Of a stretch of 31,646 nucleotides of DNA, positions 26,294 through 27,306 are shown piece after piece. A model generated the notes under the pieces. That model worked only from the letters and a program-made list of their open reading frames with translations. It did not search any database and had not been told where the DNA came from. The position numbers and the translations under genes are program-made. Origin of the DNA: a virus (Duplodnaviria > Heunggongvirae > Uroviricota > Caudoviricetes); IMG/VR virus record IMGVR_UViG_648276671_000019, positions 1 through 31,646 of that record. One strand, 5' to 3'. Within the stretch, counting starts at the first letter, position 1, and every line of letters starts with the position of its first letter.

Positions 26294-26482
26294 ATGAACA
26301 TTTATTTCAGAATAGTTATATCACTGGCAATTATCGCATGTATTTACGGATTAATCGTTCCGACCCTCATATCAATGAAGGATACGGTAGCAGTGATTTC
26401 TGGCTTTGCTCTGGCGTGTCTGACCCCGCCCTGCATTTATGCCCTTTATAAGGGTCTTTCTTTTTCTAAGGATAAAAGATGA
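26294..26482 (+). CDS. Small two-helix membrane protein (62 aa)
   Basis: Two hydrophobic segments (IVISLAIIACIYGLIV and VAVISGFALACLTPPCIYALY); GGAGGA Shine-Dalgarno; stop overlaps the next ATG (ATGA). Confidence 0.55.
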   Translation: MNIYFRIVISLAIIACIYGLIVPTLISMKDTVAVISGFALACLTPPCIYALYKGLSFSKDKR

Positions 26483-27306
26483 AAAAAATTATTCCTGCTT
26501 TAGCCCTTGTTCTGCTGACCACCGGACTTGTCGGTTGCGATCGCGTTGAGCCTGGTAATGTGGGCATCAAAGTAAACAAACTGGGCGACGATAAAGGCGT
26601 CGGTGAGGTGGTCGGTGTTGGTCGCTACTGGACGGGATGGAACACTGAGGTTTACATCTTCCCGACCTTCAAACAAATGAAGACCTACGATGAGCCATTC
26701 AGCTTCCAGATGAGTGACGGTACAACCATTGGCTATCACATCGGCGTGGCCTACAAAGTTGATCCATCCAAAGTTACCACAGTCTTTCAGACCTACCGCA
26801 AAGGCGTGGACGACATTACCGACACTGACCTGCGCCAGAAAATCGCCGATGCGCTGAACCGACTGGCCAGCAAAATGACCACCGACAAATTTATCGACGG
26901 TGGCAAATCTGAATTACTGGATGCAGCCCTTAAAGACATTCAGGCAGAGATGACGCCAATCGGTATTCAGGTGATGAGCCTCTCTTATGTAGGTAAGCCG
27001 GAATACCCGCCAACCGTTATTGACAGCATTAACGCCAAGGTCACGGCAAACCAGAAAACCCTGCAACGCGAGCAGGAAGTTAAACAGCGCGAAGCAGAGG
27101 CCAACATGCTGCGCGCGGAAGCTGCCGGACAGGCTGATGCCATTCGCACAAAAGCCCAGGCCGAAGCCGACGCCATTCGTTTACGCGGTGAAGCTCTGCG
27201 CCAGAACCCAAACGTTATGGAACTGGAAGCCATCAACAAGTGGAACGGCACACTGCCACAGTACATGACCAGTGGTGCAGACACACCATTTATTCAGGTT
27301 AAGTAA
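26479..27306 (+). CDS. SPFH (band-7/stomatin-like) domain lipoprotein
   Basis: Signal peptide with lipobox LVGC; central SPFH-like region; C-terminal Ala/Glu/Gln-rich coiled coil. Confidence 0.7.
   Translation: MKKIIPALALVLLTTGLVGCDRVEPGNVGIKVNKLGDDKGVGEVVGVGRYWTGWNTEVYIFPTFKQMKTYDEPFSFQMSDGTTIGYHIGVAYKVDPSKVTTVFQTYRKGVDDITDTDLRQKIADALNRLASKMTTDKFIDGGKSELLDAALKDIQAEMTPIGIQVMSLSYVGKPEYPPTVIDSINAKVTANQKTLQREQEVKQREAEANMLRAEAAGQADAIRTKAQAEADAIRLRGEALRQNPNVMELEAINKWNGTLPQYMTSGADTPFIQVK

What the first reader, a model, noticed from the sequence alone, without database searches (positions are those of the whole stretch)
26294..27306. Small two-helix membrane protein translationally coupled to an SPFH-domain lipoprotein
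The pairing resembles NfeD-like partner plus SPFH/stomatin operons, but here it is phage-borne, in the early-left accessory region, and the SPFH protein carries a lipobox. SPFH proteins organise membrane microdomains, so this pair could affect superinfection exclusion, lysis timing or membrane-protein stability.
Basis: partly seen in the sequence, partly recalled or inferred. Interest (0 to 1): 0.6.

Follow-up and report, generated by a model that had tools for sequence, protein, structure and literature searches.

The report
Phage SPFH lipoprotein plus two-helix partner
This prophage carries a tightly coupled gene pair, a tiny two-helix membrane protein and a lipid-anchored scaffold protein of the SPFH (stomatin/HflK) kind; the same pair is a conserved module in hundreds of temperate and virulent phages and some bacteria, its function is untested, and it most likely builds a cage-like scaffold on the periplasmic face of the inner membrane.

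Summary
ORF 26294-26482 encodes a 62-aa helical hairpin. Its stop overlaps (ATGA) the start of ORF 26479-27306, a 275-aa Band_7/SPFH protein (Pfam E 8e-31) with a lipobox (LVGC) and Asp at +2. The pair sits in the early-left operon of a genuine siphovirus prophage, not a chimeric assembly.

The small protein is not NfeD: 0 of 74 family members match it, and there is no room for an OB fold. It belongs to an unnamed family (PHROG 1130) with an invariant Pro-x-L-I-Ser turn.

It is almost always encoded next to this SPFH subfamily (PHROG 200): 79/79 close viral loci, 14/14 reverse look-ups and 39/44 species genomes across several phyla. In about 19 of 150 representative clusters the two are fused into one protein that keeps the lipobox.

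The charge distribution of the small protein and the order of segments in the fusions place the SPFH domain in the periplasm, as in HflK/C, which is also the closest solved structure.

The module also occurs in virulent N4-like, rV5-like and other phages, and in apparently chromosomal bacterial loci. I found no functional study.

My best reading is a two-subunit periplasm-facing SPFH scaffold that acts during lytic growth. Its biological target is unknown.

The parts
25841..26233 (+). Upstream 130-aa basic protein (PHROG 1886, function unknown). It travels with the pair in this cassette but is not an obligate partner.
   Evidence: PHROG 1886 E 6.2e-58. It is 38% identical to the gene directly upstream of the pair in phage Fraca. 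It is present in only 25 of 80 close viral loci. Compared with the syntenic phage phi467, window 25823-27342 is replaced as one block.
26286..26290 (+). Shine-Dalgarno-like GGAGG ahead of the small gene
   Evidence: Read from the sequence.
26294..26482 (+). Small partner gene: a 62-aa two-helix membrane hairpin with predicted N-in/C-in topology and a conserved periplasmic turn P23-T-L-I-S27
   Evidence: ORF; PHROG 1130 E 6.7e-24. Pro23 is invariant and Ile26, Ser27, Val34 and Gly37 are >=90% conserved in 74 sequences. AF2 gives a hairpin, pLDDT 85. Mean K+R per protein in the family: N-tail 1.0, loop 0.9 (balanced by 1.0 D+E), C-tail 3.85.
26441..26455 (+). Short GC-poor hairpin followed by a T-rich run inside the 3' end of the small gene. 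It is terminator-like by pattern only and its significance is unknown.
   Evidence: Consensus scan: 15 such sites in the region against 9.1 +/- 2.7 in shuffles, so it may be chance.
26468..26472 (+). Shine-Dalgarno-like AAGGA for the SPFH gene, lying inside the small gene
   Evidence: Read from the sequence.
26479..26482 (+). ATGA start/stop overlap, the arrangement typical of translational coupling
   Evidence: Sequence. The same 4-nt overlap occurs in 79/79 IMG/VR relatives, in 14/14 Enterobacterales and Burkholderia contigs and in P88 and Fraca.
26479..27306 (+). SPFH/Band 7 lipoprotein gene (275 aa)
   Evidence: Pfam PF01145 E 8.2e-31; PHROG 200 E 2.9e-114. AF2 model pLDDT 93.7. Foldseek top hits are HflK/HflC, prohibitin and erlin.
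26479..26541 (+). Lipoprotein signal peptide (residues 1-19), lipobox L17-V-G-C20 and Asp21 at position +2
   Evidence: Sequence pattern. Cys20 is >=90% conserved across 140 representatives. Asp at +2 is found in 98 of 103 enterobacterial homologues that have a lipobox.
26542..27102 (+). SPFH alpha/beta domain (Pfam envelope, residues 22-208), which starts two residues after the lipidated Cys
   Evidence: strands 20-94 and 163-175, helices 96-158.
27010..27204 (+). A single 65-residue helix (residues 178-242), Ala/Glu/Gln/Arg-rich. It is the counterpart of the coiled-coil wall helix of SPFH cages.
   Evidence: AF2 secondary structure. Full-length alignments to cage protomers of HflK/C, prohibitin, erlin and stomatin.
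27238..27258 (+). C-terminal family signature K254-W-N-G-x-L-P260
   Evidence: Trp255 is invariant and Gly257 and Pro260 are >=90% conserved in 140 representatives. All three are invariant in the 12-sequence alignment.

Best explanation
The two genes encode the two subunits of one inner-membrane complex.

The 62-aa protein is a helical hairpin with both ends in the cytoplasm. It exposes a short conserved turn (Pro-x-Leu-Ile-Ser) at the periplasmic surface.

The 275-aa protein is exported and lipid-modified at Cys20. Asp at +2 then keeps it in the inner membrane. Its SPFH domain therefore lies flat on the periplasmic leaflet, directly above that turn.

Overlapping start/stop codons favour near-equimolar synthesis. 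In some lineages the two are simply fused.

Like its nearest structural relatives (HflK/C, prohibitin, erlin), the large subunit most likely oligomerises through its 65-residue helix into a ring or dome that fences off a patch of inner membrane. The hairpin would supply the transmembrane part that a lipid anchor alone cannot.

In this prophage the pair is transcribed with the early-left operon, that is after induction or infection, and the same module sits among early genes of virulent phages. The scaffold is therefore most likely used during lytic development, to stabilise or compartmentalise the inner membrane or a membrane protein machine within it.

Shown: gene structure, SPFH fold, lipobox pattern, obligate linkage and natural fusions. 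Inferred: topology, inner-membrane retention, physical contact, cage formation and timing. Unknown: the client or target, and hence the phenotype.
For: Identity of the large subunit:
- Pfam Band_7 E 8e-31.
- AF2 model with pLDDT 93.7, showing an SPFH domain, a 65-residue helix and a C-terminal tail.
- Foldseek full-length matches to cage protomers. HflC/HflK 7vhq, 7wi3 and 9cz2, prohibitin 8rrh and 9o9z, and erlin 9vvj rank 1-14; stomatin, flotillin, QmcA-YbbJ and vault follow.
- The only sequence-level PDB hit is HflK, and the only NCBIfam hits are sub-threshold HflC/HflK.

One functional unit:
- The small gene lies directly upstream with a 4-nt overlap in 79/79 close viral loci.
- Starting from small-protein homologues, 14/14 places have Band_7 as the next gene.
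- The pair is adjacent in P2-like, P1-like, N4-like, rV5-like, Vibrio, Alcaligenes, Roseobacter and Burkholderia phages.
- 39 of 44 evaluable species genomes from several phyla have the partner adjacent or fused.
- About 19 of 150 representative clusters are in-frame fusions of hairpin, basic linker, lipobox segment and SPFH. Two were verified on their contigs. PHROG 200's 379-position profile matches the query only from position 81.

Topology:
- K+R is enriched in the C-tail (3.85 per protein) and N-tail, while the loop is charge-neutral.
- In the fusions the hairpin's C-tail joins the n-region of the signal-anchor segment, which is only consistent with a cytoplasmic tail and a periplasmic SPFH domain.

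Inner-membrane retention: Asp at +2 in 98/103 enterobacterial homologues. The +2 rule itself is from my own knowledge (Yamaguchi 1988; Seydel 1999).

Timing: there is no promoter-like or terminator-like site flanking the pair. The nearest promoter-like site, 24005-24034, follows the cI-like gene. The pair occurs in virulent phages.

Precedent for non-NfeD small membrane partners of an SPFH protein: YdjG/YdjH with YdjI in B. subtilis (PMC8581546).
Against: No direct evidence exists for lipidation, localisation, interaction, oligomer state or any phenotype.

Outside Enterobacterales the +2 residue is mostly Thr, Ser or Gly. By the E. coli rule that would send the protein to the outer membrane, although sorting rules differ between taxa. 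A Pasteurella prophage 'HflK/C-like' protein of similar size was found in outer-membrane vesicles (PMC9872710). Its relatedness to this family was not verified.

Some relatives lack a recognisable partner: Pseudomonas phage TL, Caulobacter phage Magneto, Kayvirus MbpS, Fifi318, a crAss-like phage, and 5 of 44 genomes. The hairpin is therefore not universally required.

Identity to HflK/C is only 16-18% and NCBIfam scores are far below the cut-offs.

The promoter scan is a crude consensus search, so expression in the lysogen is not excluded.
Confidence: 0.55

Rival explanations
1. FtsH-directed module. The phage complex mimics, joins or displaces host HflK/C, and so changes what the membrane protease FtsH degrades. 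Possible substrates are CII/CIII-type regulators, membrane proteins, or LpxC with effects on envelope synthesis. The result would be a biased lysis-lysogeny decision or protection of phage membrane proteins.
For: HflK/HflC are the nearest relatives by sequence and by fold, and they share the predicted periplasmic orientation. HflK/C cages enclose FtsH hexamers (PMC13086221, citing Ma 2022 and Qiao 2022). From established lambda biology (my own knowledge), hflK/hflC control CII stability through FtsH.
Against: Similarity is weak: 16-18% identity, and 25 bits against a cut-off of 134. Prohibitin and erlin score equally well. The module is common in strictly virulent phages that make no lysogeny decision and in bacteria that already have their own FtsH and HflK/C. 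FtsH contact residues could not be tested.
Confidence: 0.15
2. Superinfection exclusion or anti-phage defence. The complex alters the inner membrane so that DNA of incoming phages cannot cross it, or so that infection aborts.
For: The pair lies in an accessory early-left region that is swapped as a cassette relative to phage phi467. Many exclusion proteins are small inner-membrane proteins or lipoproteins (T4 Imm, HK97 gp15, T5 Llp; my own knowledge). One fused homologue lies two genes from an Acb2/Tad1-type counter-defence gene.
Against: Neither protein nor three neighbours match any PADLOC model. There is no own promoter or terminator of the moron type. The module is conserved in apparently non-prophage chromosomal loci. 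Defence genes usually show patchier distribution and faster turnover than this pair, which is conserved across phyla.
Confidence: 0.12
3. Lysis-timing device. The small hairpin is a class II holin-like or antiholin protein, and the SPFH scaffold corrals it or the phage's true holin to set the time of lysis.
For: Size, two helices, N-in/C-in topology and a basic C-tail resemble class II holins (the holin features are from my own knowledge). In Staphylococcus Kayvirus phages the SPFH gene mbpS and a small membrane gene mbpV lie between the endolysin lysK and tgl, and MbpV was noted to resemble holins (PMC7150955).
Against: The window's lysis cassette (endolysin 13707-14240, Rz-like spanin 13246-13725) is 12 kb away on the other strand. 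In most phages the pair lies among early genes. Fusion of the hairpin to the SPFH protein at fixed 1:1 stoichiometry fits a structural subunit better than a hole-forming protein. MbpV belongs to a different family (PHROG 3667).
Confidence: 0.08
4. Lysogenic-conversion factor. The lipoprotein reaches the outer membrane or vesicles and changes host-cell surface properties, such as serum resistance, adhesion or immune stimulation.
For: A prophage-encoded 'HflK/C-like' protein of 25-35 kDa in Pasteurella multocida is found in outer-membrane vesicles, signals through TLR1/2 and affects virulence, capsule and serum sensitivity (PMC9872710). In non-enterobacterial relatives the +2 residue is mostly Thr, Ser or Gly.
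Against: Asp at +2 is conserved in the enterobacterial clade. The partner is an integral inner-membrane hairpin, fused in cis in some lineages. The module occurs in virulent phages that never form lysogens. No independent promoter was seen. Homology of PM0222 to this family could not be checked.
Confidence: 0.07
5. An ordinary NfeD-stomatin operon, or a host gene pair placed in the phage by mis-assembly.
For: Gene order (small membrane gene, then SPFH gene) resembles ybbJ-qmcA-type operons. Cellular homologous pairs do exist.
Against: 0 of 74 members match NfeD. The predicted orientation is opposite to QmcA-YbbJ. The pair has the same neighbours in closed chromosomes and in isolated phages.
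Confidence: 0.02

Closest known systems
HflK/HflC (E. coli FtsH-modulating SPFH cage; PDB 7vhq, 7wi3, 9cz2)
   Same: Best solved match by sequence and by fold over the full length. Same order of elements: N-terminal membrane anchor, SPFH domain, long wall helix, C-terminal cap segment. Same predicted side of the inner membrane, the periplasm.
   Different: 16-18% identity, and far below the NCBIfam equivalog cut-offs. One SPFH gene instead of a paralogous pair. A lipid anchor plus a separate two-helix subunit instead of an own transmembrane helix. About 275 aa against 334-419 aa. No evidence of FtsH binding.
QmcA-YbbJ and other SPFH-NfeD operons (PDB 8z5g; SPFH1/2/5 classes of Hinderhofer 2009, PMC2636767)
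   Same: A small membrane protein is encoded immediately next to an SPFH protein and presumably assembles with it at fixed stoichiometry. QmcA is a structural hit (rank 33).
   Different: The partner has no NfeD/OB-fold domain. It is only a hairpin. The QmcA-YbbJ cage protrudes into the cytoplasm (PMC13086221), whereas this one is predicted to be periplasmic.
B. subtilis YdjG/YdjH-YdjI (pspA-ydjGHI operon; PMC8581546)
   Same: An SPFH protein without its own transmembrane helix depends on small integral membrane proteins encoded just upstream. These are non-NfeD partners.
   Different: YdjI is cytoplasmic, works with PspA and has a zinc-finger tail. I did not test for sequence relationship, and there is no lipobox.
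Prohibitin and erlin cages (PDB 8rrh, 9o9z, 9vvj)
   Same: Equally good full-length fold matches. They form exoplasmic- or luminal-facing domes that compartmentalise a membrane patch.
   Different: They are eukaryotic, hetero-oligomers of two paralogues, and anchored by a transmembrane helix.
Phage database families PHROG 200 ('lipoprotein') and PHROG 1130 ('membrane protein'); Kayvirus MbpS; Pasteurella PM0222
   Same: The window's proteins are clear members of PHROG 200 and PHROG 1130. MbpS is a distant relative (about 26% identity) and also has a small membrane gene upstream.
   Different: These are sequence bins without a tested function. Papers state that the role in phages is unclear (PMC13239085, PMC7760394). 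MbpS has a transmembrane anchor and a different partner family.

Membership tests
SPFH / Band 7 superfamily (Pfam PF01145) | Profile match above the curated gathering score | tested here: met
   107.8 bits against a cut-off of 23.6, E 8.2e-31, profile positions 2-176 of 176.
SPFH / Band 7 superfamily (Pfam PF01145) | SPFH alpha/beta fold followed by a long coiled-coil helix | tested here: met
   AF2 model pLDDT 93.7 with helix 178-242. Foldseek probability 1.00 to HflK/C, prohibitin, erlin, stomatin, flotillin and vault.
SPFH / Band 7 superfamily (Pfam PF01145) | Assembly into large membrane-attached rings or cages | not testable with these tools
   Only monomer prediction was available. This needs native MS or cryo-EM.
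HflK / HflC (NCBIfam TIGR01933 / TIGR01932) | Score above the equivalog cut-off | tested here: not met
   HflC 25.1 bits against 134.4; HflK 22.8 bits against 159.4.
HflK / HflC (NCBIfam TIGR01933 / TIGR01932) | Two paralogous SPFH genes in tandem that form a hetero-oligomer | tested here: not met
   There is a single SPFH gene. Its neighbours are a 62-aa hairpin gene and an ORF6N anti-repressor-like gene.
HflK / HflC (NCBIfam TIGR01933 / TIGR01932) | Periplasm-facing SPFH domain | tested here: inconclusive
   Predicted from the signal peptide and lipobox, from the charge distribution and from the fusion architecture. There is no experimental topology.
HflK / HflC (NCBIfam TIGR01933 / TIGR01932) | Binds and modulates FtsH | not testable with these tools
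   Requires pull-down or substrate-stability assays.
SPFH-NfeD operon | The partner carries an NfeD (PF01957) OB-fold domain, with or without a ClpP-like protease domain | tested here: not met
   No NfeD hit at E<=1 for the window protein or for any of 74 family members. The 62 aa are modelled entirely as two helices.
SPFH-NfeD operon | The partner gene is adjacent to and co-directional with the SPFH gene | tested here: met
   4-nt overlap on the same strand.
Bacterial lipoprotein | Signal peptide ending in a lipobox [LVI][ASTVI][GAS]C | tested here: met
   MKK, then a hydrophobic stretch, then L-V-G-C20. A lipobox was found in 112 of 150 representatives and Cys is >=90% conserved. No dedicated predictor (SignalP/LipoP) was available.
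Bacterial lipoprotein | Lgt/LspA/Lnt processing, and sorting by the +2 residue | not testable with these tools
   Asp at +2 in 98/103 enterobacterial homologues predicts inner-membrane retention by the E. coli rule. No experiment was done.
PHROG 200 / PHROG 1130 | Significant profile match over most of the protein | tested here: met
   E 2.9e-114 (residues 1-274) and E 6.7e-24 (residues 1-61).
Class II holin | Small protein with two transmembrane helices, N-in/C-in, and a basic C-terminus | tested here: inconclusive
   These general features are present, but many membrane hairpins share them.
Class II holin | Encoded in the lysis cassette beside the endolysin and spanin genes | tested here: not met
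   The endolysin and Rz-like spanin genes are at 13246-14240 on the - strand, 12 kb away.
Known anti-phage defence systems (PADLOC-DB 2.0) | Match to any defence-protein model | tested here: not met
   0 hits at E<=0.1 for both proteins and three neighbours.

The most novel reading that the evidence does not exclude
The pair defines an unrecognised class of SPFH system: a periplasm-facing, lipid-anchored cage whose transmembrane 'fence' is supplied by a separate 60-aa hairpin subunit. Phages of many lineages, temperate and virulent, have repeatedly captured it from bacteria to wall off a patch of inner membrane during infection. In the fused variants, which all keep an internal lipobox, the lipoprotein signal peptidase may cut one precursor into the two subunits. 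That would be an unusual polyprotein-like use of the lipoprotein pathway.
Probability: 0.2. Interest if true: 0.75.

Novelty: new variant of a known kind. Interest (0 to 1): 0.5.

Why it matters
SPFH cages (HflK/C, prohibitin, stomatin, flotillin, erlin) are an active topic in membrane biology, yet what most bacterial ones do is unclear. For phage-encoded ones, recent papers say plainly that the role is unknown (PMC7760394, PMC13239085).

This analysis shows that one SPFH subfamily comes with its own dedicated partner. The partner is not NfeD and has no Pfam family. It is conserved from Enterobacterales to Bacteroidota and Actinobacteria, and it is sometimes fused to the SPFH protein.

The module is carried by about 1% of sequenced phages, including therapeutic-type virulent phages, Stx-converting phages and P1-like plasmid prophages.

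That gives a small, genetically tractable two-gene system in E. coli for two questions. How is an SPFH scaffold anchored and assembled on the periplasmic leaflet? Why do phages want one?

If the scaffold affects envelope stability, FtsH, exclusion or lysis timing, it would matter for phage therapy and for the biology of Stx phages. If it proves dispensable, it remains an ordinary accessory gene pair.

Tried and rejected
1. NfeD identity of the small protein is rejected. No PF01957 hit for it or for 73 relatives. Only scattered weak hits to unrelated membrane families appeared (best E 0.0055), which I take as hydrophobic-composition noise.

2. A known defence system is rejected at the level of PADLOC-DB 2.0.

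3. Chimeric assembly or host gene is rejected.

4. A three-gene module with the upstream PHROG 1886 protein was considered, because the cassette swap against phi467 covers all three genes and Fraca has the same neighbour. I rejected it as obligate, since only 25 of 80 close loci carry that gene.

5. 'Serine protease', the annotation in phiP27 and Stx2 phage records: no protease family matched above noise. PHROG 11227 'protease' gave only E 4.8e-4 over the coiled-coil region. I treat the name as a legacy label inherited from HflC.

6. The own-promoter/terminator 'moron' model found no support. The consensus scan found no such sites flanking the pair.

7. The first genome contigs attempt, with the 140-sequence alignment, failed because no stretch was conserved enough. 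I repeated it with 12 sequences.

8. Literature searches for SPFH with prophage, defence system, holin or phage-encoded terms returned no functional study of this family.

9. The Hinderhofer 2009 subfamily scheme (SPFH1-12) could not be mapped onto this family from the text alone.

10. I did not model a fusion protein or a complex. The structure tool returns no coordinates or contact maps, so it could not have shown an interface.
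Full report
**What is there.**
On the + strand, ORF 26294-26482 encodes a 62-aa protein and ORF 26479-27306 a 275-aa protein. The stop of the first and the start of the second share ATGA at 26479-26482. Each gene has a Shine-Dalgarno-like element: GGAGG at 26286-26290 and AAGGA at 26468-26472.

The large protein matches Pfam Band_7/SPFH across the whole profile (E 8.2e-31) and PHROG 200 'lipoprotein' (E 2.9e-114). Its N-terminus, MKKIIPALALVLLTTGLVGC-DR, is a textbook lipoprotein signal peptide with lipobox LVGC and Asp at +2.

The small protein matches PHROG 1130 'membrane protein' (E 6.7e-24) and has no Pfam family. AlphaFold2 with 74 homologues models it as two helices (2-26 and 31-61) joined by a four-residue turn, with mean pLDDT 85.

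**Where it is.**
The window is one arm-to-arm stretch of a siphovirus prophage. Tape measure, major head protein, large terminase, HNH endonuclease, Rz-like spanin and endolysin genes lie on the - strand at 1033-14240, and primase and helicase at 18262-21817. A cI-like HTH/S24 repressor lies at 23175-23942 and a second HTH protein at 24089-24517. A run of + strand genes then ends in an integrase at 30447-31646.

The pair lies in that early-left run. An ORF6N anti-repressor-like gene (27347-28099) and a beta-clamp-like gene follow it. A simple consensus scan finds no promoter-like or terminator-like site flanking the pair. The nearest promoter-like site, 24005-24034, sits just after the repressor gene. 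I infer that the pair is transcribed as part of the early-left operon.

About 8 kb around it is collinear at about 94% identity with prophages in closed E. coli chromosomes. The pair is also found in isolated phages (phiP27, Stx2 phages, P88, Fraca, Cyrano, RCS47). A chimeric assembly can be dismissed.

The syntenic phage phi467 lacks the pair. Window 25823-27342 (a PHROG 1886 gene, the small gene and the SPFH gene) is replaced there by two unrelated genes. So this is an exchangeable cassette. The PHROG 1886 gene is present in only 25 of 80 close loci and is not part of the core unit.

**The pair is an obligate unit.**
- Among 80 close IMG/VR loci, 79 have the small gene with exactly the same 4-nt overlap. 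The eightieth has no upstream sequence to evaluate.
- Starting instead from two small-protein homologues (Enterobacterales P0123 and Burkholderia P0202), 14 of 14 places have a Band_7 gene next, again with a 4-nt overlap.
- Among diverse phages, a hairpin gene of the same family lies directly upstream in P2-like P88, Fraca, Cyrano, P1-like RCS47, N4-like Erwinia S6 and Alcaligenes QDWS595, Vibrio CKB-S1, Roseobacter DSS3_MAL1 and Burkholderia phi1026b. The spacing ranges from a 17-nt overlap to a 22-nt gap. In RCS47 the hairpin ORF is not annotated. In rV5-like GAP31 one 54-aa gene intervenes.
- The family is defined by an invariant Pro and a nearly invariant Ile-Ser at the end of helix 1 (P23-x-L-I-S27), and by conserved Val34 and Gly37.
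- In one genome per species (GTDB representatives), 45 loci were found and 44 could be evaluated. Thirty-six have a separate adjacent partner and three a fused one. They include Xanthomonadales, Pseudomonas, Cupriavidus, Saprospirales, Salinivirgaceae, Actinobacteria, a Eubacteriaceae MAG and Dependentiae.

**Natural fusions.**
An exhaustive search of 1.84 billion representative proteins found 3,038 clusters at E<=1e-3 and 223 at E<=1e-30. Of the best 150, about 19 carry the hairpin domain at their N-terminus (HMM of alignment A1, E 1.8e-11 to about 1e-2). The hairpin is followed by a Lys/Arg-rich linker, a third hydrophobic segment that still ends in a lipobox-like [GAS]-Cys, and then the SPFH domain. 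Two fusions were confirmed on their contigs. PHROG 200's 379-position profile, which the window protein matches only from position 81, tells the same story.

Such Rosetta-stone fusions are strong evidence that the two proteins act together at 1:1. They also fix the topology. The hairpin's basic C-tail must be on the same side as the n-region of the signal or anchor segment, which is the cytoplasm, and the SPFH domain must be on the other side. The charge count agrees: K+R per protein is 1.0 in the N-tail and 3.85 in the C-tail, and the loop is net neutral.

**What the large subunit looks like.**
With 140 diverse homologues, AlphaFold2 gives a confident model (pLDDT 93.7). The SPFH alpha/beta domain begins two residues after Cys20. 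It is followed by one 65-residue helix (178-242), a short helix (244-254) and a conserved tail.

Foldseek against the PDB aligns the whole chain to protomers of cage-forming SPFH proteins. HflC/HflK, prohibitin and erlin fill ranks 1-14. Stomatin, flotillin, QmcA-YbbJ and the vault shoulder follow. The best-ranked group consists of the exoplasmic- or luminal-facing cages. That is suggestive only, because the E-values differ by about two orders of magnitude.

By sequence, HflK is the only PDB hit (E 1e-3), and HflC/HflK are the only NCBIfam hits, far below the cut-offs. The family has its own signatures: FPTF-x-Q (61-66), FQ-x-YR-x-G (103-109), and an invariant Trp255 in KW-x-G-x-LP.

**Localisation.**
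Of the 150 representatives, 112 have a lipobox, 29 have an uncleaved hydrophobic anchor and 9 are fragments. An extracytoplasmic SPFH domain tethered at its N-terminus is therefore the common theme.

In the enterobacterial clade Asp follows the Cys in 98 of 103 cases. Asp at +2 is the classical Lol-avoidance signal in E. coli (my own knowledge), so I infer inner-membrane retention, which fits an inner-membrane hairpin partner. Elsewhere the +2 residue is mostly Thr, Ser or Gly. Sorting rules differ among taxa, so this is an open point and not a contradiction.

**Distribution and what it implies.**
tblastn finds relatives in 584 of 50,697 phage records. Besides temperate phages these include strictly virulent groups: N4-like Schitoviridae, rV5-like Vequintavirinae, Bruynoghevirus, phiCbK-like Caulobacter phages, Kayvirus (MbpS), jumbo phages, Lak megaphages and haloviruses.

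In E. coli, 716 of 5,426 complete genomes carry a match, about half of the places being on plasmids, which include P1-like phage-plasmids.

At least some bacterial copies look chromosomal and not prophage-borne. One in Dyella lies next to ribonucleotide reductase, and one in Saprospirales lies among HMG-CoA reductase, helicase and permease genes. I checked only these two loci.

A role confined to lysogenic conversion is therefore unlikely. The module seems to do something generally useful at the membrane, which phages exploit during lytic growth.

**Literature.**
I found no functional study. Two phage papers state that the role of the SPFH protein in phages is unclear or poorly understood (PMC13239085, 2026; PMC7760394, 2020). 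A few peptides were detected by mass spectrometry in phage preparations, which shows expression (PMC10892097, PMC7760394). For Kayvirus MbpS a role in Sec-dependent export of Tgl was only speculated (PMC7150955).

A Pasteurella prophage 'HflK/C-like' protein, PM0222, is a virulence factor found in vesicles (PMC9872710). I could not obtain its sequence, so membership is unverified.

The best mechanistic precedent for a non-NfeD partner is B. subtilis YdjI, an SPFH protein that needs the small membrane proteins YdjG and YdjH, encoded upstream, for membrane recruitment (PMC8581546). QmcA-YbbJ, the solved SPFH-NfeD complex, forms a cytoplasm-facing cage of 26 heterodimers (PMC13086221, citing Tan 2024).

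**Best explanation and its limits.**
I conclude that the pair encodes a two-subunit, periplasm-facing SPFH scaffold of the inner membrane, made in roughly equal amounts through translational coupling. The hairpin provides the transmembrane element and the lipoprotein forms the oligomeric wall.

- Shown: the genes, the SPFH fold, the lipobox pattern, the near-obligate linkage and the fusions.
- Inferred: topology, inner-membrane retention, direct contact, ring or cage formation and early expression.
- Not known: what the scaffold encloses or protects.

The functional readings are modulation of FtsH, exclusion of other phages, control of lysis timing and surface conversion. Each has some circumstantial support and some counter-evidence, and I rank them below the generic scaffold statement.

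**Novelty and verdict.**
The individual genes are already binned in databases, and this window's copy is one of thousands. Two things appear not to have been described: the system-level picture of a dedicated, non-NfeD hairpin partner that is conserved across phyla and sometimes fused, and the periplasmic orientation. This makes it a new variant of the known SPFH-plus-partner theme, not a new kind of system. Interest is moderate: a clean, testable two-gene model for an open question, but not a surprise to a specialist.

Noticed in passing
L114:3212-3991 (Shigella flexneri SFBU1023 chromosome); L115 (E. coli ECMA0423) shows the same gap of about 0.8 kb: An IS1 element is inserted exactly at the junction of the small gene and the SPFH gene. 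Its terminal repeat GGTAATGACTCCAACTTATTGAT starts at 3212, and GATAAAAG is repeated on both sides. The insertion separates the coupled genes. L115 was not inspected base by base.
   Followed up: partly
P0244, P0317, P0240, P0239, P0274, P0238, P0257, P0225, P0221 and others; loci L112 and L113: All 19 hairpin-SPFH fusion proteins keep a lipobox-like [GAS]-Cys at the end of their third hydrophobic segment. This raises the possibility that signal peptidase II cuts the precursor into the two subunits.
   Followed up: partly
P0230 (344 aa, a representative cluster): Here the hairpin domain sits at the C-terminus after '...GPWQ-MKKEII...'. This looks like the reverse gene order (SPFH, then hairpin) read through a stop codon, possibly in a phage with a reassigned stop codon.
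   Followed up: no
L083:2230-2460 (phage RCS47, P1-like): The hairpin ORF (MQNNPNKCRTLWVRLYIYAVLCLIVSLVLYVWLLPNMISSNS...) upstream of the SPFH gene is not annotated in the RefSeq record. It is likewise unannotated ('none') under the match in several Stx2 phage records.
   Followed up: yes
phiP27 AJ298298 and Stx2 phage records (hits H1, H3-H13): The SPFH lipoprotein is annotated 'serine protease' or 'putative serine protease'. No protease domain was found, so the label looks like a legacy of the old HflC 'protease' name.
   Followed up: partly
L113:218-520: A gene with an Acb2/Tad1-hairpin Pfam hit (an anti-CBASS/anti-Thoeris sponge family) lies two genes upstream of a fused hairpin-SPFH gene, in a run of small phage-like genes.
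   Followed up: no
L091:2585-3753 (Caulobacter phage Magneto): An RtcB-like RNA ligase gene lies two genes downstream of the band 7 lipoprotein gene. In P. aeruginosa the SPFH gene paFlo8 is embedded in the rtc locus (PMC13086221). This may be a recurring SPFH-Rtc association.
   Followed up: no
L152:1814-3142 (Saprospirales MAG): The pair lies next to an HMG-CoA reductase gene (isoprenoid synthesis) in what looks like a chromosomal context. SPFH microdomains have been linked to polyisoprenoid lipids in the literature.
   Followed up: no
window 26441-26455: A terminator-like hairpin (GCCCTTTATAAGGGT followed by CTTTCTTTTT) lies inside the last codons of the small gene, just before the SPFH start. 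It could tune the ratio of the two products or be a chance match.
   Followed up: no
window 28096-28665: A 189-aa protein gives a weak DNA polymerase III beta-clamp central-domain hit (PF02767, E 0.0023, below the cut-off). PHROG 3007 labels it 'RusA-like resolvase', while RefSeq relatives call it 'beta clamp domain-containing protein'. The annotations conflict.
   Followed up: no
window 15510-16454: A lone + strand 314-aa gene (PHROG 7003, unknown function) sits between the lysis genes and the replication genes, both of which are on the - strand. It may be an independently transcribed accessory gene.
   Followed up: no
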